A DNA stretch of 64,000 nucleotides, taken from the NCBI RefSeq assembly GCF_017348835.2, contig NZ_CP071375.1, one strand, 5' to 3'. The notes under the pieces were generated by a model. The model was not told the DNA's origin. It worked only from the letters and a program-made list of their open reading frames with translations, and did not search any database. The stretch comes from Escherichia coli. Lineage in GTDB: Bacteria > Pseudomonadota > Gammaproteobacteria > Enterobacterales > Enterobacteriaceae. Positions 2,724 through 60,319 of the stretch are shown in pieces (position 1 is the first letter of the stretch; the number at the start of each line of letters is the position of its first letter). The translations under genes were made by a program, and so were the position numbers.

Positions 2724-3156
2724 AATTCTCCAAAATTTATATTTAAGTAGCTGAATAAAGAGAGTTAACAATTAAGTCATTCTGTTATTGCTTATAAAAC
2801 AAGAATCATTCTTGATTGGTTGTTGCCCTGAGAATATAGTTTCCAGGATTATTACATTTCACGAAGAACGAGAATATCTTTAAATCACAAGGACACCTAA
2901 TCACAACAAGTTTATTGCTGCACTTGTTGAAGAGAGTATTTGCAAAAATATTTTATGTCGCTAAATAACATAACGATTTCATTATGCATGTTATTTATAA
3001 ACCGTGACTAAACAGAATATTATTGCGAACAAGGGAAGTGTCAGGAAAGGTCAAGGGCTACTAATGGTTTATATGGCTATAAATCATTAGCTATAGTTAA
3101 TGTTTGCCTGGTGTAACTAACACCGAATTGCTCTAAACAGATAAGTGCAGGGTTTA

Positions 3157-3411
3157 TTAAAGCTGACCGACAGACTTTCTTAACCTGGTAATATCTCTCT
3201 TAGGTGACTCTCCAAACATCTGCAAATATTCCCGGCGGAAATGGGATAAGCTTTCGTAACCGACAGCATAGGCTGCTGTGGTGACATCGTAATGTTCATT
3301 CAGCATCGTTCGCCTGACTTCATTGAGACGTAGCCATTTCTGATACCGGAGTGGACTCATTCCCGCAAGCTGCCTGAAGTGTTGATGGAAAGAGGGCGTG
3401 CTCATTTGCAC
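3157..3411 (-). pseudogene. yneL: AraC-family regulator fragment (C-terminal HTH only), yneL-like
   Basis: 84-aa ORF carries only the second AraC helix-turn-helix; the overlapping 3320..3577 ORF in another frame does not look like HTH1, so the gene appears truncated or frameshifted. Confidence 0.45.
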
Positions 3412-4117
3412 GCGGTTTGCCAGCTTGAGTCTTCAACGCTGGGAAGATGCGGCAAACGGCAAATCGGCATACCAGCCAGCCTATATCCGTCATGCACAGG
3501 CCAATTATGAAAGAGGAGAGGCTTAAGTTCTGGAACCCTGAACGAATAACGAGCACCGGAAAATCACTTCGTATCACTCAGATGCTATTTAACATAATAT
3601 ACATTATGCGCACCAATATAAACCAAGGGAGAATCTAGTCGTTGGCGGTCATGATTGTCCTGCTCATTAACAACGACCAAACCCCATATCTTACTCTTAC
3701 TTAATACCGTATTCCCGGCTTAACCGACCGTGCAACCTCAACACATTGGTTTCAACTGCCGTCACCACGTTCTCTGGAAAATCTGTCGGTAATGAAGTCT
3801 TCACGTTATCCAGTGCTGCCGGAATCATTCTGGCAAAGTCACTCAGGATTTCATGCATCTGCACTTCCGGGAATCTCAGCACCTTTGCTGTCGCCAAAAA
3901 ATGTCGCGGATAAATTTTATCGATTGCCGTTTTTTTGCCTTTGGATGCGTTAAGCCCCATTGCCAGTTTGAGATCGCTGATGTGTATTCCCGCGCCACCC
4001 AATACCGGAAATGCTGAAATGATGTCGTAAAATGGCGTGAGTCGATAACTGCCGCCAGCCTGAATAAATACGGAGAAGTTTTTTGCATGGCCATCCGTTG
4101 CGCCAATCAGTTCGCTG

Positions 4118-4547
4118 CATACCGGTCCGACCCCGTACTGCTCACGCAGCTTATCCAGCAGTGGCATTATTTTTTCCAGAGGCGGTCGAACTCCGCCTTC
4201 GCAAAATAAGCGGAAGCCTGGCGAAGGATATCGTTACTGCGGCGCAGTTCACGATTTTCACGTTCCAGCTCTTTCAGACGCTGACGTTCAGCGGTGGTGA
4301 GTCCACCATCACCACTCCCGGTATCCCGCTCATGCTGGCGAACCCAGACACGCAGAGTCTCCGGCGTACAGCCAATCTTTGGGGCAATGGAACAAATTGC
4401 CGCCCACTGTGAGTCATATTCATCCTGACTTTCCAGAACCATACGAATCGCCCGCTGACGGACTTCGGGGGAAAAACGAGTATTTTTAGTCATCCTGTTT
4501 ACCTCTTTCTCAGGGAGTTTAGTCTCCAGGATTTCCGGGGCGGTTCA
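4118..4547 (-). mobile_element. Truncated IS3-family element (IS629/IS1203-like): terminal repeat, complete orfA, first ~20 codons of orfB
   Basis: Bases 4118..4547 match the full copy at 56514..57823 (same end sequence, ending ggggcggttca); identity stops at 4118 inside orfB. Confidence 0.8.
4167..4493 (-). CDS. IS629-like transposase OrfA
   Basis: 108-aa ORF ([19 protein letters not shown]...), identical to the orfA at 57443..57769. Confidence 0.85.
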
Positions 4548-34945: not shown

Positions 34946-35041
34946 ATGCTGGGTAATATGAATGTTTTTATGGCCGTACTGGGAATAATTTTATTTTCTG
35001 GTTTTCTGGCCGCGTATTTCAGCCACAAATGGGATGACTAA
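34946..35041 (+). CDS. mgtS: Small membrane protein MgtS (31 aa)
   Basis: ATG at 34946 after GGAGG; translation MLGNMNVFMAVLGIILFSGFLAAYFSHKWDD; below the ORF-track size cutoff. Confidence 0.85.
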   Translation: MLGNMNVFMAVLGIILFSGFLAAYFSHKWDD

Positions 35042-35068
35042 TGAACGGAGATAATCCCTCACCTAACC

Positions 35069-35107
35069 GGCCCCTTGTTACAGTTGTGTACAAGGGGCCT
35101 GATTTTT
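35069..35107 (+). terminator. Intrinsic terminator after mgtS
   Basis: GGCCCCTTGT-tacagttgtgt-ACAAGGGGCC hairpin followed by tgattttt. Confidence 0.75.
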
Positions 35108-35116
35108 ATGACGGCG

Positions 35117-35218
35117 AAAAAAAACCGCCAGTAAACCGGCGGTGAATGCTTGCATGGATAGATTTGTGTTTTGCTTTTACGCTAACAGGCATTTTCCTGC
35201 ACTGATAACGGATCGTTG
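35117..35218 (-). ncRNA. mgrR: PhoP-dependent small RNA MgrR (approximate ends)
   Basis: Minus-strand terminator (ccgccggtttactggcgg + T8, + coords 35117-35142) about 100 nt downstream of a perfect PhoP box; matches the known mgtS-dgcZ intergenic location of mgrR. 5' end estimated. Confidence 0.55.
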
Positions 35219-35247
35219 ACACAGTAGCATCAGTTTTCTCAATGAAT

Positions 35248-35265
35248 GTTAAACGGAGCTTAAAC
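35248..35265 (-). promoter_or_regulatory. PhoP box (GTTTAA-N5-GTTTAA direct repeat)
   Basis: Minus-strand GTTTAAGCTCCGTTTAAC; overlaps the dgcZ stop codon and lies upstream of the inferred mgrR start. Confidence 0.7.
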
Positions 35266-46612: not shown

Positions 46613-47188
46613 CTACGGCAGTGCTGGCCATTCAATATCCTGTGCAGTTGACGTATCAACACGGTTCAGCAATACCCGATACTTTTTCCATGCTTCCAGC
46701 AACGAGATTTCTTCCTCCGTTGCAATTTCCAGATCTGCAGCATCCTGAAGCGGCGCAATATGCTCACTGGCTACCTGCATCAGGCTGTTTTTTGTTTCTT
46801 CCGCCTCCCGGATCCGGAACAGTTTTTCTGCTTCCGTATCCTTCACCCAGGCTGTGCCGTTCCACTTCTGATATTCCCCTCCCGGCGATAACCAGGTAAC
46901 ATTTTCCGGTAACGGACCGAGTTCAGAAATAAATAACGCGTCGCCGGAAGCCACGTCATAAACCGTTTTACCCCGATGATCTTCAACGAGATGCCACGAT
47001 GCCTCATCACTGTTGAAAACAGCCACGAAGCCTGCCGGAATATCTGGCGGTGCAATATCGATACTGTTTGCTGGCAGACCTGTATGAGGCGGAATATATG
47101 CGTCACCTTCACCAATAAATTCATTAGTTCCGGCCAGCAGATTATAAATTTTTATGGTCCGTGGTTGTTCACTCATTCTGAATGCCAT
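46613..47188 (-). CDS. tfaQ: Tail fibre assembly protein
   Basis: 191-aa Tfa-like ORF directly downstream of the tail-fibre C-terminus. Confidence 0.8.
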
Positions 47189-51173: not shown

Positions 51174-51444
51174 AATGTTACCGTAATATGTGAGTATCCA
51201 TCGACTAGACACTAAGCAAAAAAGCTCCCGAAGGAGCCTTCATTTTCACTTTCTTAAATCTAACGACAGATGGCTAACATTTAAGTATTGTGAAATATTA
51301 TCAAATGTAATCATCATTGATTTACAAAAGATACATTTTGCCCCGAAAGGATTTCTGTCAGAAACATCAAAAGATGATGTTCTATACTGAGAACCATGGC
51401 AACACGGGCATCTAAAGTGAATATGGTTTGTAATATTTTCTACC

Positions 51445-51657
51445 TCAAAGTGCCACTACATGAACAGCTGCAGGGCCTTTAGGTCCGTTCTCAATACCAA
51501 ATTCGACTTCCTGATTCTCAGTTAACGTTTTGAAATCGTTGCTCTGAATAGCTGAGAAATGCACAAACACATCTTTGCTACCATCTTTCGGCGTGATGAA
51601 ACCAAAACCTTTTTCAGGGTTAAACCATTTCACTAAACCAGTCATTTTGTTAGACAT
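51445..51657 (-). CDS. cspI: Cold-shock protein
   Basis: 70-aa cold-shock-domain ORF ([21 protein letters not shown]...). Confidence 0.9.
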
Positions 51658-52020
51658 CATTATTACCTTTTGAAGAAGTTAGCCCTTGGGCAGAATGGTC
51701 CGAAAAAAAATATCAGAGAGAAAAACCAACAAGGAAATCTCAAGAGGTACAAATAATAAAATTATAACAATGACTGCTTCAGATAATTTTGTAACAAACC
51801 AGAACACCATTAACGCATGATTAACCAACCATAGCAAGGATTACTTTTGTAAAGAAAAACACACGAATGAAACAATAGCTTTATTTATTAATAAAACGTG
51901 TCATTCTGTCTAATGACCTTTTATCTTACCCTTAAGATTTCAAGGATTTTGACTCATGGAAGAGTCCTTTTTATTTAAATTTCACATTCAGCGCTAAAAA
52001 TAATCCGATTTAATATTAAT

Positions 52021-54617: not shown

Positions 54618-54897
54618 AGATTGTGGTGCTTTTTGTGGGAGTCATCCACTTACGCACTTTGTTTTGCCATGCCAGCAGTTAGCTTCTGCTGTAAAACTAT
54701 TCATGCAGCAAACCTGCACTTCACCACAATGGTTAGCATACTTTTCCTGATTAAGATTTTGCCAAATATGCTGGCCATTGTTTCATGTATTGGACCTCCT
54801 TAATTTTCATTAAAGAGATCCAATATTCACTACTCTGTCCGTATCTCTACTCAGGCATCAGCCTTCTTCGTTATCGTATACAGACGAGCGATGAATT

Positions 54898-55113
54898 TTA
54901 ATCAGTAATGATGACATTTGCTGCTGCAGGACCTTTAGCACCACTCTCTATAGAGAAGGTAACCTTTTGACCTTCAAATAAGGTTCGATAATTATCATTC
55001 TGAATCGCAGAAAAATGCACAAACACATCTTTACTACCATCAACAGGAGAAATAAAGCCGAAACCTTTATCAGCGTTAAACCATTTTACTAAACCAGTCA
55101 TTTTATTTGACAT
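54898..55113 (-). CDS. cspB: Cold-shock protein
   Basis: 71-aa cold-shock-domain ORF. Confidence 0.9.
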
Positions 55114-55411
55114 TCTACATTCCTTAACTTGAGCCTTTCGGCATAAATGGTTTGCATAACAGAAACGACTTCGTACTTAATTGGAGAGACTCAAAGAAGG
55201 AATAAGTGAATAACACCTGAAATGAGAACTGCTTTAGTAAACTACTTCGTATATCGTCTGTTCTTCAAACCGACGCAGTCATTAACTCATAGTTGAACAT
55301 ATGAAGCAATGTTTATTTTAGACATCCAGCCACCTTCAACCCTATCAAAAAAGTAGTTTTCTCCAGGAACGTGTGTATGGTGCACCAGGTTATCAGTATT
55401 AAGGAGTTTTT

Positions 55412-55625
55412 CTGTCCCCTAAAATGACAGGAATTGTCAAAAACTTTGACTACAAAAGCAGCAAAGGTCTTATATTCCCATCCGATGGCGTATCGATGCC
55501 CAGCTTCACGTTTCAGCTCTCAATCTTCGAGATGCAGAAGAAATTACCACAGGATTACGCGTGGAATTTTGCCGGATAAATGGTTCGCGTGGACCTTCAA
55601 CTGCCAATGTTTATCCCGGGATGAG
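55412..55625 (+). pseudogene. cspF: cspF/cspH-like cold-shock gene with a frameshift
   Basis: N-terminal MTGIVKNFD...PSDG is in one frame; the rest ([42 protein letters not shown]) is in another frame that runs on to 55950. Confidence 0.45.
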
Positions 55626-55656
55626 ATTCAATATCTCTATTGCCCCATTTAAAGCA

Positions 55657-55690
55657 CAAAAACCCGCTTATAAGCGGGTTTTCTACTTTT
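55657..55690 (+). terminator. Intrinsic terminator
   Basis: aaaaa-CCCGC-ttataa-GCGGG-tttt. Confidence 0.7.
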
Positions 55691-55788
55691 TTCTAAACGT
55701 CGGATACACAAAGCCCATCGTTGAGAAAATCTTATCCATGTTTTTTGAAAAATGCAAACATCATGTCGCCATCTTCAGCAAAAATCAT

Positions 55789-56513
55789 TTATCTCGTCAC
55801 CTTCCTCAATTGCGCTTCCGCGTATGCTTCTTCCTGCCAGCACTTTGTTACCAGTTTACCAATGACGTCAGCATACCCCTTATACCACTGATAATCGGTC
55901 AGGTCTGGTACCAGCTTCTGGACATGACGTCGTGCCAGCGTGGTCGGTAAACGACTAAACCGGTTTCCATTACAACGCCCACAAATCTTATATACCGGTA
56001 CGCCATGAAACCGGGTTCTTTTTTCATCCAGAACAATCCCTTTACCCTTACACCCTCTGCACGCTGTGCTGACTTCGCCCTTACCATGGCAATGCTGACA
56101 TAGTTCCTTTACCCATTCTTCCTTGATTACAGATTCCCCGCGTCTGTAGTGTTTCACCACTTCGCGCAATACATTATAAAATCCCGTACCTGAACAATGC
56201 TCACAGCGAGCCTTACTTGCCGCAGACCTAGAGTAATCAGCAAAGGCAAAATTCACGAGGTAAGGAATAATCTGTAACCGGATTTCTTCACTCAATTTGT
56301 TCAATGTCGGGTTATCCAGTGCCATCGCGTAATTTAGCAGGCCTTCAATCGCAAACTGAGGGTCCTGAACACCAACTTTTGCCAGAAATAAGGCCAACCC
56401 AAGTGGTGCTTTCGACTGCACCATCCCCTGCGCTGCCATTACATCCGTAATTGTTAAACAACCGGTGCCTGTCGCTGGAGCGTCATCGCTCAATTTTGGA
56501 GATTTTGGGGAGT
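55789..56513 (-). CDS. quuQ: Late-gene antiterminator Q-like protein with four CxxCxGxG zinc motifs; 5' end removed by IS629
   Basis: 234-aa ORF starts at TTG 20 bp from the IS end; frame is open right up to the IS boundary at 56514. Sits upstream of the cold-shock morons and lysis genes. Confidence 0.6.
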
Positions 56514-56555
56514 TGAACCGCCCCGGGTTTCCTGGAGAGTGTTTTATCTGTGAAC

Positions 56556-57443
56556 TCAGGCTGCCAGATCATTATTTCCGATGGAAGCATAATAAGCTTT
56601 TTCTGCTTCTGCCGGAGGAATATGGCCCAGCCTTTCCAGCAATCGTCGATTGTTATACCAGTCCACCCACGTTAGTGTGGCCAGTTCCACTTCTGTCCGG
56701 TTTTTCCAGCTCTTACGGTGTATTACCTCCGCTTTGTAAAGACCATTGATGCTCTCAGCCATCGCGTTGTCATACGAGTCGCCAGTACTCCCTGTTGATG
56801 CCAGTAATCCGGCTTCCTTAAGCCGCTGCGTGTAGGCCAGCGATACATACTGAGAACCTTTATCACTGTGATGGATTGTGCCGGACGGCCGACGGGCCCA
56901 CAACGCCTGCTCCAGTGCATCCAGCACGAATGTTGTTTCCATGGATGATGAGACCTGCCATCCCACGATGTATCCGGCGAACACATCAATGATGAACGCC
57001 ACATAAACGAAGCCCTGCCATGTGCTTACCCAGGTAAAATCAGCCACCCACAACTGGTCTGGACGTTCTGCCACGAACTGACGGTTTACGCGGTCGCATG
57101 CGGCAACGGCTTTCCGGCTGACGGTAGTGCGGACCTTTTTACCCCGGAGAACACCGGCAAGTCCCATAACTGCCATGAGACGTGCCACAGTGCATCTGGC
57201 CACTCTGATACCTTCCCGTAACAACTGACGCCAGACTTTACGCACACCGTATACCTGGTGATTTTCATCGTATACGCGCTGTATCTCTTTCTTCAGCCAG
57301 TCATCGTGCTGCGCACGGGCACTGCGTTTATCCGGATGATGTCGCTGTTGCTGACAATGGTAATACGTTGACGGGGCAATATGCAGTTCGCTGCATACCG
57401 GTCCGACCCCGTACTGCTCACGCAGCTTATCCAGCAGTGGCAT
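56556..57443 (-). CDS. IS629-like transposase OrfB (DDE); expected to be made as an OrfAB fusion by -1 frameshift
   Basis: 295-aa ORF; A-rich slippery stretch (GGAAAAAATAATG) at the orfA/orfB overlap. Confidence 0.9.
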   Translation of the reverse strand: MPLLDKLREQYGVGPVCSELHIAPSTYYHCQQQRHHPDKRSARAQHDDWLKKEIQRVYDENHQVYGVRKVWRQLLREGIRVARCTVARLMAVMGLAGVLRGKKVRTTVSRKAVAACDRVNRQFVAERPDQLWVADFTWVSTWQGFVYVAFIIDVFAGYIVGWQVSSSMETTFVLDALEQALWARRPSGTIHHSDKGSQYVSLAYTQRLKEAGLLASTGSTGDSYDNAMAESINGLYKAEVIHRKSWKNRTEVELATLTWVDWYNNRRLLERLGHIPPAEAEKAYYASIGNNDLAA

Positions 57444-57769
57444 TATTTTTTCCAGAGGCGGTCGAACTCCGCCTTCGCAAAATAAGCGGAAGCCTGGCGA
57501 AGGATATCGTTACTGCGGCGCAGTTCACGATTTTCACGTTCCAGCTCTTTCAGACGCTGACGTTCAGCGGTGGTGAGTCCACCATCACCACTCCCGGTAT
57601 CCCGCTCATGCTGGCGAACCCAGACACGCAGAGTCTCCGGCGTACAGCCAATCTTTGGGGCAATGGAACAAATTGCCGCCCACTGTGAGTCATATTCATC
57701 CTGACTTTCCAGAACCATACGAATCGCCCGCTGACGGACTTCGGGGGAAAAACGAGTATTTTTAGTCAT
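57443..57769 (-). CDS. IS629-like transposase OrfA
   Basis: 108-aa ORF identical to 4167..4493. Confidence 0.9.
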
Positions 57770-57874
57770 CCTGTTTACCTCTTTCTCAGGGAGTTTAGTC
57801 TCCAGGATTTCCGGGGCGGTTCATTAAAGATTTTTTTGTGCATGCCGATAGTGCTTTTTTAAAAGGAGAAATCT

Positions 57875-58207
57875 ATGTCTGTCACAATTCAGGGAAATAC
57901 CTCAACCGTTATTTCAAACAACTCCGCCCCGGAAGGAACATCAGAAATAGCCAAAATCACAAGACAAATTCAGGTGCTGACTGAAAAGCTTGGGAAAATC
58001 TCATCGGAAGAGGGGATGACGACACAGCAGAAAAAAGAAATGGCTGCATTGGTACAGAAGCAAATTGAAAGCCTCAGGGCTCAACTGGAGCAGTTGTTAA
58101 GGCAGCAGGCAGAGAAAAAGAATGAAGACGCGACAGTTCAGCCTGATAAAAAAGAAGAGAAAAAAGACGATACAAATACCGCTGGCACCATTGATATTTA
58201 CGTCTAA
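57875..58207 (+). CDS. flxA: Prophage protein FlxA
   Basis: 110-aa ORF MSVTIQGNTSTVISNNSAPEGTSEIAKITRQIQVLTEKLG... with ribosome-binding site. Confidence 0.7.
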   Translation: MSVTIQGNTSTVISNNSAPEGTSEIAKITRQIQVLTEKLGKISSEEGMTTQQKKEMAALVQKQIESLRAQLEQLLRQQAEKKNEDATVQPDKKEEKKDDTNTAGTIDIYV

Positions 58208-58221
58208 GTGACAGCCGTATT

Positions 58222-58245
58222 GTGGCCCTCATCGGGCCACTTTTC
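58222..58245 (+). terminator. Intrinsic terminator after flxA
   Basis: GTGGCCC-tcatc-GGGCCAC-ttttc. Confidence 0.75.
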
Positions 58246-58643
58246 GCCATCAGCCTTTTCTTTAAAGACATATTATCTTTGTATCATTTCTGATAGTTAA
58301 CATTACAAGATATAAGTAATGGACGCACTCCCAATTAGTCTATTTAAATCGCCACGAGTTTAACTGACAACCCATGATCAATTATGAATTGCAACTATTT
58401 CTGTAGTCACTTTTGTGGGGACAGTCCACAAAACTGCCAACTTCCGCTTCTTGCTCTTAGCGGACATTAGCATAGGCTATTTACCATAACGCCTCATTAC
58501 GCGCACCGCCCAGACTGACTCAGCGCGTTTCTGGCATATCCCCGGTAAAACAAGTAACAAACCACCCGAAAATGAACACCAGAAACGCGACTTAAGAATC
58601 TACCCTATGAATGGATATGCACTCAACCGAATCGATCTTGGTT

Positions 58644-59985
58644 TCAATCTTTTTTATCGGGATCAGGCTTCTTTTTAGGTAACTTCGGGGGCTTAACTTG
58701 CTGATGACTTTGCGTTCGGCGCGTAAGCCAGGGATGGTCAGCTTTAGGTTTAACATAGTATTTTGAGCGTAAATCAATACGGGCATTATCCACTCGTTCA
58801 TGGACACTCTTTTCATCATCCAGTGGTATAGGCTCCGGGCCATCAACATACTTTTCCCAGCCCAGCGCTTTCCCGTCATACAGAACGTTAATTTCACCGT
58901 CAAAGTTCTCGCATACAGTAACAACCGAATGCCTAAGTCGATATCCCCGGCCCTCACTGCGTACCTGAAACGCACTGCTTTTGTACTGGAAAGTGAGATT
59001 TTTAGACAGAACGCGCTTCGCCTGTAGGCTGAAGATATAACCCAGTTCCTCTTCAGAATGGTGCACATCAAGATGAGCATTATCAGTAGTACGAGGCGAC
59101 GTAGCGAACCGGTTGTTATAGGCTTCAATAAAGGTCGGCAACCATGCATTTGCTGTTTCAATATCACTGATATTCTGAAGCCGCATTTCTTTGACCAGCC
59201 TGTCCTGTAGTGTCTGATTGGCGCGCTCTACCCGCCCTTTTGCCTGCGGGCTGTTGGCATGGATTGGCTCGATGCCCAGTGTCTTTATCGCACGAGTGAA
59301 CTGGGTCAGCTCACCTTCCCGCTCTGGGTTATTTACCCTGAATATACTGTGTCTATCAGAGTAGAGAGCGAGCGGTACGCCATGATCATTAAGGTAACCC
59401 CGGAGGGTTTCCATGTAAGCCCGGGTTGTTTCAGCAGGCACAAAACGCAACGCCATCAACGCACTGGTGGCATCATCAATGAAAACGATCAGTGTACATC
59501 TGGGGCCTCGATTTTCAAACCAGTCATGAGGTGAGCCATCAATCTGGATCAGTTCACCGTAAGATGGTCGTCGCATGCGGCGTTGATATATACGGGCAAT
59601 TTTACGACGGCGTTCACGCCATACCCCCCTCTTCTATCATCCACTTTCTGAGAGTTTCAACGGATAAAGATAAACCGTGTATCTCGCGCAATTTTTCGCA
59701 CGCAAACGTAGGTCCAAAATCAGCGTAACGGCCTTTGAGGAGTGAAATTACTGTTGCTCTGAATTCAGTAGAAAAGGAATTATTAGGACGCTTTCCACGT
59801 CGGTGGGAAACCAGACCAGAAGGCCCTTCATTTCTATACCGTTGCACCAGACGTTTAACCTGCCGAATAGAAATGCCAATGCGTGCCGCAGCTTGTTCCT
59901 GAGTAATATGTCGATTAATTGACTCCTGAATAATCTGAAGTCGGTGGAGTTCCTTATGACTCATCGTAACAGTTTCTTTGGTCAT
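58644..59985 (-). pseudogene. HTH + DDE (integrase-core) transposase split into two frames (IS481/ISNCY-like)
   Basis: N-terminal HTH ORF 59614..59985 and DDE ORF 58644..59576 are in different frames; a C7 run sits at the junction (59625-59631). Confidence 0.6.
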
Positions 59986-60319
59986 GAAAAATCCCCCAGA
60001 GAATTGTCTGGGGACATTTTAGAATGGTTCAAAGGGGACATTACAGCTTGGTGTTAACAATAGCCTGCTTCTCCTTGCCTTTCGGCACGTAAGAGGCTAA
60101 CCTACATGTGTCTGGCATGAAATTGGCCTCAGATTAATGTTAAGCGTCTTGCAGGACGCGTAATGTTAACTGGGGCTTTTCTCTACCTGCCGTTGGTGTT
60201 CGTGCCCGAGGCAGATAGCCTCAAGCACCCGCAGTCATTCTACTTAACTAAGATTTCCCCGCAAACCGTTTTTGTCCAGCACAGTAAATATCCAACTAAA
60301 CCAATGGAGTTCGCTGTAT

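What the first reader, a model, noticed from the sequence alone, without database searches (positions are those of the whole stretch)
55412..55950. cspF-like cold-shock gene with a frameshift and a long C-terminal extension
The cold-shock domain is split after ...PSDG. The frame holding the domain C-terminus (…GPSTANVY) has no stop where family members normally end and runs on for about 100 codons, through a strong terminator hairpin.
Basis: partly seen in the sequence, partly recalled or inferred. Interest (0 to 1): 0.3.

Follow-up and report, generated by a model that had tools for sequence, protein, structure and literature searches.

The report
Broken cspF gene in a prophage
This is an ordinary dead copy of the small prophage gene cspF, broken by a one-base deletion and a 258-base deletion; the same broken copy is found in about 4% of complete E. 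coli genomes and is already labelled a pseudogene in public annotation.

Summary
Window 55412-55614 is cspF of a Qin/Tritos-like lambdoid prophage, between cspB and the antiterminator gene ydfT/quuQ. It carries two lesions relative to intact alleles. (1) A T is deleted between 55488 and 55489 (GATGGTCGT to GATGGCGT), which shifts the frame after Gly26. (2) A 258-bp deletion at 55613|55614 removes the last two codons, the stop codon, the whole small-protein gene ynfS and some spacer. The "C-terminal extension" is not a protein extension. It is a frame left open by the second deletion. It runs through the conserved terminator (55659-55682) and then antisense into ydfT, and ribosomes starting at the cspF start never enter it. 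Identical DNA is annotated by NCBI PGAP as "cspF, frameshifted; incomplete; missing C-terminus". Both lesions occur in 215 of 5,426 complete E. coli genomes. No genome in that set has the repaired form, so a sequencing error is excluded. The viable phage Tritos of strain LF82 carries the same broken allele. One genome (CP123276.1) has the same haplotype intact. There is no slippery site for recoding. Verdict: a known pseudogene allele of low interest.

The parts
55412..55488 (+). cspF pseudogene, 5' segment: codons 1-26 ([26 protein letters not shown]). The start is CTG here and TTG in K-12, with an AAGGAG Shine-Dalgarno at 55402-55407. An in-frame ATG lies at 55424.
   Evidence: PGAP places the pseudogene feature in identical DNA at L001 6163-6365, which equals window 55412-55614.
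55488..55489 (+). Site of the 1-bp deletion. The T of codon 26 (GGT) is missing: K-12 GATGGTCGTATC, window GATGGCGTATC. The reading frame shifts after Gly26.
   Evidence: Alignments A1, A3 and A4. The as-is 80-mer occurs in 215 genomes and the repaired 81-mer in none at 99% or more.
55489..55614 (+). cspF pseudogene, 3' segment: codons 27-68 ([42 protein letters not shown]), out of frame with the 5' segment.
   Evidence: The NCBIfam CspF profile is matched to position 68 of 70.
55613..55614 (+). Junction of the 258-bp deletion (K-12 L002:3368-3625). Lost: the last base of codon 68, codons 69-70 (LS), the stop codon, ynfS (29 aa, [29 protein letters not shown]) and spacer. There is no microhomology at the junction.
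   Evidence: ynfS is identified through UniProt YNFS_ECOLI and Pfam PF23697 YnfS on the intact locus. The junction 80-mer occurs in 215 genomes.
55424..55579 (+). The 51-aa ORF actually readable from the cspF ATG: 22 residues of cold-shock domain followed by 29 out-of-frame residues. Predicted to be non-functional.
   Evidence: Pfam CSD 15.7 bits against a cut-off of 27. NCBIfam CspF 35.1 bits against 111. Deposited in GenBank as 'hypothetical protein' or 'cold-shock protein'.
55561..55950 (+). It comprises the last 17 CspF residues and then 111 codons of former intergenic DNA, terminator and antisense ydfT.
   Evidence: The extension has no Pfam family. In the protein collection it appears almost only as unnamed automatic gene calls: 1 of 40 members read carries a name.
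55659..55692 (.). Intrinsic terminator hairpin (AAAACCCGCTTATAAGCGGGTTTT) with T runs on both strands, lying between the convergent cspF and ydfT. It is conserved in K-12, 2H10 and Tritos.
   Evidence: Folds: -14.5 kcal/mol on the + strand and -21.4 kcal/mol on the - strand, z about -4 for both. Alignments A1 and A3.
55789..56513 (-). ydfT/quuQ antiterminator gene, convergent with cspF. Its first 28 nt are cut off by an IS insertion. The 'extension' ORF overlaps its 3' end in antisense (55789-55950).
54882..55274 (-). cspB (CDS 54898-55113) with its cspA-type thermoregulator 5' UTR, divergent from cspF. This is intact neighbouring context.
   Evidence: Rfam RF01766, 158.8 bits..

Best explanation
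Window 55412-55614 is a dead copy (pseudogene) of cspF, the cold-shock-domain gene that sits between cspB and the Q-type antiterminator gene ydfT in Qin/Tritos-like lambdoid prophages. Two independent lesions inactivate it. The first is a single-T deletion in codon 26 that shifts the frame. The second is a 258-bp illegitimate deletion that removes the 3' end of the gene with its stop codon, and also the neighbouring small-protein gene ynfS. What the sequence shows directly: translation from the native start gives a peptide of 51 aa (from the ATG) or 55 aa (from the CTG), holding only about the first third of the domain plus 29 unrelated residues. What I infer: this peptide cannot form the five-stranded cold-shock barrel, so CspF function is lost. 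The long open frame after ...NVY is an accidental by-product of the deletion. Transcripts from the cspF side should end at the conserved hairpin at 55659-55692, which lies inside that frame, and beyond the hairpin the frame is antisense to ydfT. The allele is old and inherited. It arose once on a divergent cspF haplotype and spread with a Tritos-like temperate phage.
For: The alignment to K-12 and ET979 shows both lesions exactly, with coordinates and the deleted segment confirmed. PGAP annotates identical DNA in NZ_CP031105 as a cspF pseudogene, 'frameshifted; incomplete; missing C-terminus'. Neither real ORF reaches the Pfam or NCBIfam cut-offs, whereas the conceptual repair does: CSD 61.5 bits against 27, CspF 135.4 against 111. 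In the population, the frameshift 80-mer occurs in 215 of 5,426 genomes (206 identical), the repaired 81-mer has no match at 99% or more, and the deletion junction occurs in 215 genomes. Phage Tritos (OV696610.1) has both lesions and no CDS annotated there. Tritos forms plaques and virions (PMC9928086). CP123276.1 has an intact allele with every window-type substitution, the T and the 258-bp segment with ynfS. CspH and all intact CspF proteins end in ...NVYLS, so the shorter state here is the derived one. There is no XXXYYYZ heptamer and no homopolymer at the site. The terminator is supported.
Against: No expression data were examined for this locus, so the claims that the transcript stops at the hairpin and that the truncated peptide is inert are inferences. 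dN/dS between this haplotype and K-12 is 0.38. That value is neither clearly neutral nor clearly constrained, and the substitutions predate the lesions, so it says nothing about decay after inactivation. For up to 9 of the 215 genomes, which are not identical over the 80-mer, I did not check base by base that the T is missing. I infer that the same 215 genomes carry both lesions from the equal counts and from the lack of any repaired match. I did not check this record by record.
Confidence: 0.95

Rival explanations
1. The frameshift is a sequencing or assembly error in the window, and the gene is really intact.
Against: The same 80-mer with the missing T is identical in 206 independently assembled complete genomes and in the separately sequenced phage Tritos. 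The site is not a homopolymer. Even with the T restored the gene would still lack its stop because of the 258-bp deletion.
Confidence: 0.01
2. Programmed -1 ribosomal frameshifting or transcriptional slippage joins the two frames and produces a CspF with a new 111-residue tail.
For: A -1 shift is the direction needed to rejoin the frames. The downstream frame is open for 129+ codons.
Against: There is no X XXY YYZ slippery heptamer anywhere in 55424-55579, and no A/T run at the site. The tail matches no protein family, crosses an intrinsic terminator and is antisense to ydfT. Its sequence is simply the former ynfS-ydfT intergenic DNA that is also present in K-12. PGAP calls the locus a pseudogene.
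Confidence: 0.01
3. One of the leftover ORFs (the 51/55-aa CSD fragment with a new tail, or the 129-aa ORF with its AGGA-N6-GTG start) has become a new functional small protein. Alternatively, loss of cspF and ynfS was selected in the Tritos phage lineage.
For: The allele is common (215 of 5,426 genomes) and almost invariant around the frameshift (206 of 215 identical). It persists in a viable phage. AGGA lies 6 nt upstream of the GTG at 55561.
Against: High identity is expected for a young allele that spreads with a phage. Around the junction, 51 of 215 genomes already differ. There are no family matches. The 129-aa sequence is known almost only from unnamed automatic gene calls. An mRNA that ends at the hairpin would leave the 129-aa frame without a stop codon.
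Confidence: 0.03
4. The 258 bp are an insertion in K-12-type genomes rather than a deletion here, and the window shows the ancestral shorter state.
For: No repeats or microhomology mark the junction, so the junction alone does not show which state came first.
Against: The segment holds the conserved end of the protein (…NVYLS*), which is shared with the paralogue CspH and with CspF from Citrobacter and Salmonella, as well as the ynfS gene. The CspF profile is 70 positions long and the window stops at position 68. The same haplotype exists with the segment present (CP123276). 1,475 records carry the long form.
Confidence: 0.01

Closest known systems
cspF (b1558) of the Qin cryptic prophage, E. 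coli K-12
   Same: The locus and gene order are the same: essD - ynfU - cspB <> cspF - (ynfS) - ydfT - .... Identity over the flanks is 91%. The repaired protein passes the NCBIfam CspF model. The terminator hairpin is the same.
   Different: The window copy lacks one T in codon 26. It also lacks 258 bp, including codons 69-70, the stop and ynfS. It has CTG rather than TTG as the start. It differs at 8 residues: R3P, T11N, G14Y, G17S, T22F, V30A, L58S and A63T.
The cspF pseudogene as annotated by PGAP in RefSeq (for example DUT84_RS24560 in NZ_CP031105.1)
   Same: 100% identical over 551 bp. The annotated feature corresponds to window 55412-55614 and is flagged 'frameshifted; incomplete; missing C-terminus'.
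   Different: Nothing within the locus itself. In that genome ydfT is intact, whereas in the window an IS element interrupts it.
The cspB-Q region of Escherichia phage Tritos (prophage 3 of AIEC LF82, OV696610.1)
   Same: It has the same 1-bp deletion and the same 258-bp deletion junction. The surrounding lysis, cspI and cspB genes are the same.
   Different: There are two SNPs in the compared stretch: G to C at window 55603 and A to C in the hairpin loop. No feature is annotated there. Tritos is a complete, plaque-forming phage (PMC9928086), while the window's prophage has an IS in Q and rearranged DNA beyond it.
Intact cspF of the same haplotype in E. coli CP123276.1 (P0037)
   Same: All window-type nucleotide and amino-acid substitutions are present, including the CTG start.
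   Different: It has the T, the 258-bp segment with ynfS and a normal ...NVYLS* end, plus one extra change, R55W. It is rare: a single cluster member on one contig.
CspH (b0989), paralogue of CspF
   Same: It is a 70-aa divergent cold-shock protein with few aromatic residues and the same C-terminus ANVYLS. PMC6719143 states that its function is unknown.
   Different: Identity to the repaired window protein is 67%, and the NCBIfam CspH score of 106.9 is below that model's cut-off of 141. From my own knowledge, not tested here, K-12 cspH lies at a different chromosomal locus.

Membership tests
CspF subfamily of cold-shock proteins (NCBIfam NF012007; Pfam CSD PF00313) | The sequence scores above the curated cut-off of the family model | tested here: not met
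   The real ORFs fail: the 51-aa ORF scores 35.1 bits and the 129-aa ORF 27 bits, against a cut-off of 111, and Pfam CSD gives 15.7 bits against 27. Only the conceptual repair passes (135.4 and 61.5 bits). So the DNA descends from the family, but no encoded product is a member.
CspF subfamily of cold-shock proteins (NCBIfam NF012007; Pfam CSD PF00313) | One uninterrupted ORF of about 70 codons covering the whole domain | tested here: not met
   The frame shifts after codon 26.
CspF subfamily of cold-shock proteins (NCBIfam NF012007; Pfam CSD PF00313) | Normal C-terminus (...ANVYLS) followed by a stop codon | tested here: not met
   The profile is matched only to position 68 of 70. Codons 69-70 and the stop lie in the deleted 258 bp.
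CspF subfamily of cold-shock proteins (NCBIfam NF012007; Pfam CSD PF00313) | Genomic position between cspB and the Q antiterminator gene in a Qin-like lambdoid prophage | tested here: met
CspF subfamily of cold-shock proteins (NCBIfam NF012007; Pfam CSD PF00313) | Nucleic-acid binding or chaperone activity of the product | not testable with these tools
   The papers consulted report the function of even intact CspF/CspH as unknown (PMC6719143, PMC11648934).
Disrupted (unitary) bacterial pseudogene | Inactivating lesions relative to intact orthologues at the same locus | tested here: met
   A 1-bp deletion and a 258-bp deletion relative to K-12, ET979, phage 2H10 and CP123276. PGAP flags the locus as a pseudogene.
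Disrupted (unitary) bacterial pseudogene | The lesion is real and heritable, not a sequencing error | tested here: met
   215 genomes and one phage genome share it.
Programmed -1 ribosomal frameshift gene | Slippery heptamer X XXY YYZ at the frame junction | tested here: not met
   No such heptamer in 55424-55579. The sequence at the site is CCGATGGCGTATCG.
Programmed -1 ribosomal frameshift gene | The frameshifted arrangement is the conserved state among homologues | tested here: not met
   All other CspF/CspH homologues found are single-frame proteins of about 70 aa. 1,475 E. coli records carry the unshifted K-12-type gene.

The most novel reading that the evidence does not exclude
The combined loss of cspF and the small-protein gene ynfS is not neutral decay. 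Instead it would be a selected change in the Tritos-like phage lineage, for example by removing a product that harms the phage or its host, or by creating an expressed 51/55-aa chimeric peptide. That would explain why the broken allele is in about 4% of complete E. coli genomes while its intact same-haplotype ancestor is almost never seen.
Probability: 0.04. Interest if true: 0.3.

Novelty: already known. Interest (0 to 1): 0.07.

Why it matters
It matters very little. The result shows that an odd-looking ORF is a routine prophage pseudogene that NCBI's annotation pipeline already flags. Three small points are useful. (1) Automatic gene callers and some GenBank submitters have deposited the 51-aa and 129-aa leftovers as proteins, which is annotation noise. 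(2) The same allele sits in the viable phage Tritos of the Crohn's-associated strain LF82, so neither cspF nor ynfS is needed for that phage to form plaques. This is a modest hint about two genes of unknown function. (3) The allele, with its unique deletion junction, could serve as a marker for tracing Tritos-like prophages.

Tried and rejected
1. I searched for any E. coli complete genome carrying this haplotype with the T restored. None matched at 99% or more.

2. I looked for recoding signals, meaning a slippery heptamer or a homopolymer at the site. There are none.

3. I scanned the 111-residue 'extension' and the whole 129-aa ORF against Pfam. Nothing matched.

4. I ran Rfam over the whole window. 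No RNA family overlaps 55412-55950. The only nearby match is the cspA thermoregulator on cspB.

5. The sigma-70 promoter scan found no consensus-like cspF promoter in 55275-55412. This is uninformative either way.

6. I computed dN/dS to test for decay after inactivation and got omega 0.38. The value says nothing on that question, because the intact CP123276 allele shows that the substitutions predate the lesions.

7. I tried to identify the source genome through the ydfT-IS junction. No complete E. coli genome in the collection has it contiguously.

8. I looked for microhomology at the 258-bp deletion. A CATGAG repeat lies near both ends in K-12, but the junction does not use it.

9. A literature search for cspF pseudogenes found no paper that discusses this allele.

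Full report
**1. What is at the coordinates**

The region lies between cspB (54898-55113, minus strand) and a Q-type antiterminator gene (ydfT/quuQ, minus strand, stop at 55789). Reading the plus strand from 55412 gives [26 protein letters not shown]. The frame then runs into unrelated residues and stops at 55577-55579. The rest of a cold-shock domain, [42 protein letters not shown], is in the frame one base back. That frame has no stop until 55948-55950, 111 codons after ...NVY. On the way it crosses a hairpin with a 10-bp stem and a T run at 55659-55692. The hairpin folds at -14.5 kcal/mol with z = -4.0.

**2. The lesions, found by comparison**

A 551-bp query matched 1,745 of 5,426 complete E. 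coli genomes. 212 records matched at 99% or more, and 1,475 matched at 90-95%. K-12 matched in two pieces spanning 810 bp.

The alignment with K-12 and with strain ET979 (A1) shows two lesions in the window:
- **1-bp deletion.** One T is missing between 55488 and 55489. K-12 reads GATGGTCGTATC and the window reads GATGGCGTATC. This is the third base of codon 26.
- **258-bp deletion.** The segment between 55613 and 55614 is missing. It corresponds to K-12 locus L002:3368-3625.

The lost segment starts at the last base of codon 68. It holds codons 69-70 (Leu-Ser) and the stop codon. It also holds a 29-codon gene ([29 protein letters not shown]) and spacer DNA. The 29-aa product is UniProt YNFS_ECOLI, and it matches Pfam YnfS on an intact locus. 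YnfS was detected as a tagged protein in K-12 (bioRxiv 10.1101/511675).

The junction uses no microhomology. The haplotype also has CTG where K-12 has the TTG start codon. Intact alleles share that feature, so it is not necessarily a defect.

**3. The state here is derived, real and inherited**

- CspH and all intact CspF proteins recovered end in ...NVYLS.
- The NCBIfam CspF profile has 70 positions, and the window matches only to position 68.
- NCBI's PGAP annotates 100%-identical DNA in NZ_CP031105.1 as [quoted passage not shown]. That feature corresponds to window 55412-55614.

Short diagnostic queries gave these counts:

| Query | Result |
|---|---|
| 80-mer around the frameshift, as in the window | 215 genomes, 206 of them identical |
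| Same stretch with the T restored | no match at 99% or more; 213 matches at 98.8% |
| 80-mer across the deletion junction | 215 genomes |

So a sequencing error is excluded. No intermediates with only one lesion are visible in this collection. I infer that the same 215 genomes carry both lesions from the equal counts. I did not check this record by record.

**4. Where the allele travels**

A tblastn search of phage genomes with the repaired protein hit Escherichia phage Tritos in two pieces. Alignment A3 shows that Tritos carries both lesions, whereas phage 2H10 has an intact cspF and ynfS. The Tritos depositors annotated no gene at this spot.

Tritos is prophage 3 of the adherent-invasive strain LF82. 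It is spontaneously induced, forms plaques on an MG1655 hsdR- derivative and was imaged as a siphovirus. Its neighbouring genes cspI and cspB are expressed 93-fold and 59-fold above the prophage background in the lysogen (PMC9928086). The broken cspF therefore rides in a working phage, and neither cspF nor ynfS is needed for that phage to be viable.

**5. The intact ancestor haplotype**

It is encoded in CP123276.1. Alignment A4 shows that this genome carries every window-type substitution, and also the T, the 258-bp segment and ynfS. It has one additional change, R55W.

The eight amino-acid differences from K-12 (R3P, T11N, G14Y, G17S, T22F, V30A, L58S, A63T) therefore predate both lesions. 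Nei-Gojobori estimates against K-12 are dS 0.197, dN 0.074 and omega 0.38. For the same reason, this value says nothing about decay after inactivation.

**6. What the locus does now**

Neither real ORF passes a family cut-off:

| Sequence | Pfam CSD (cut-off 27 bits) | NCBIfam CspF (cut-off 111 bits) |
|---|---|---|
| 51-aa ORF | 15.7 | 35.1 |
| 129-aa ORF | no match | 27 |
| Conceptual repair | 61.5 | 135.4 |

The 111-residue tail matches no Pfam family.

Shown directly: translation from the native start ends after 51 aa (from the ATG) or 55 aa (from the CTG), with only about the first third of the domain.

Inferred: such a fragment cannot form the five-stranded cold-shock barrel. Transcripts from the cspF side end at the hairpin, which lies inside the long open frame. 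The hairpin also folds on the minus strand (-21.4 kcal/mol), so it probably terminates the convergent ydfT as well. Beyond 55789 the long frame is antisense to ydfT.

Recoding is very unlikely. There is no X XXY YYZ heptamer in 55424-55579 and no homopolymer at the site. All homologues recovered are single-frame proteins.

**7. Comparison with what is known**

The closest match is K-12 cspF (b1558) of the Qin prophage, with the same neighbours. CspF and CspH form a divergent clade of cold-shock proteins that is poor in aromatic residues and has no known function (PMC6719143). Overexpressed CspF and CspH did not act on the mRNAs that CspA-type or CspD-type proteins act on (PMC11648934).

The window's DNA descends from this family but encodes no member of it. 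As a pseudogene it meets the usual criteria and is already annotated as one in RefSeq.

**8. Verdict**

This is a real feature, correctly spotted, and ordinary. It is a known cspF pseudogene allele with two lesions. Novelty: already known. Interest: low.

**9. Context seen in passing**

- In the window, ydfT is itself interrupted 28 nt from its start by a 1,310-bp IS3-family element. Its inverted repeats are at 56514-56538 and 57799-57823.
- The DNA beyond the IS is flxA rather than the rest of ydfT.
- No complete E. coli genome in the collection has this junction contiguously.
- The prophage in this window is therefore more degraded than Tritos.

Noticed in passing
window 56514-57823: A 1,310-bp IS3-family element is inserted 28 nt inside the 5' end of ydfT/quuQ. 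It resembles IS629/IS1203: 25-nt inverted repeats, transposase ORFs at 57443-57769 and 56556-57443 on the minus strand, and an ALIL frameshift pseudoknot at 57372-57488. No complete E. coli genome in the collection has this junction contiguously.
   Followed up: partly
window 57824-58640: The DNA to the right of the IS is flxA (ORF 57875-58207), not the remaining 28 nt of ydfT followed by ydfU and rem. About 3 kb of the Qin-like prophage therefore seems to be deleted or rearranged next to the IS.
   Followed up: partly
window 55613|55614 (K-12 L002:3432-3521): The 258-bp deletion also removes ynfS, a 29-aa small protein that was detected experimentally in K-12. About 4% of complete E. coli genomes and the viable phage Tritos therefore lack it.
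   Followed up: yes
L004 (phage Tritos OV696610.1) 4001-4203: A deposited, plaque-forming phage genome carries the identical doubly broken cspF with no feature annotated there.
   Followed up: yes
L006 (CP123276.1) 3001-3213: This is the only intact copy found of the window's cspF haplotype (P0037, with an extra R55W). It sits in a 4.64-Mb chromosome. The intact form is far rarer than the broken form.
   Followed up: partly
window 55412-55414: The annotated start codon is CTG in this haplotype, including the intact alleles in ET979 and CP123276, and TTG in K-12. An AAGGAG lies 5 nt upstream. An in-frame ATG four codons downstream is the alternative start.
   Followed up: partly
L003 (strain ET979) 1663-1875: The ET979 cspF is a mosaic. 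It has window-type upstream DNA and the first substitutions (P3, N11), and then K-12-type sequence from about codon 14 onward. This suggests a recombination breakpoint inside the gene.
   Followed up: no
window 54882-55274 and 51399-51815 (minus strand): There are two cspA-type thermoregulator 5' UTR matches (Rfam RF01766), on cspB and cspI. Both neighbouring cold-shock genes look intact.
   Followed up: no
window 55424-55579 and 55561-55950: Both leftover ORFs are in public protein collections. The 51-aa ORF is deposited as 'hypothetical protein' or 'cold-shock protein' (for example in E. coli A25922R and MS 69-1). The 129-aa ORF appears almost only as unnamed automatic calls in Logan/ENA assemblies. 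This is annotation noise.
   Followed up: yes
window 58644-59985 (minus strand): An ISNCY-family transposase is split into two ORFs, 59614-59985 and 58644-59576. It is probably another frameshifted or degraded mobile-element gene.
   Followed up: no
window 4096-4212, 35035-35248, 46647-46845, 60059-60230: Other Rfam matches in the window: a second ALIL pseudoknot (another IS3-family copy), the sRNA STnc560, IS009, and a sok antitoxin RNA, presumably from the prophage's hok/sok-type locus.
   Followed up: no
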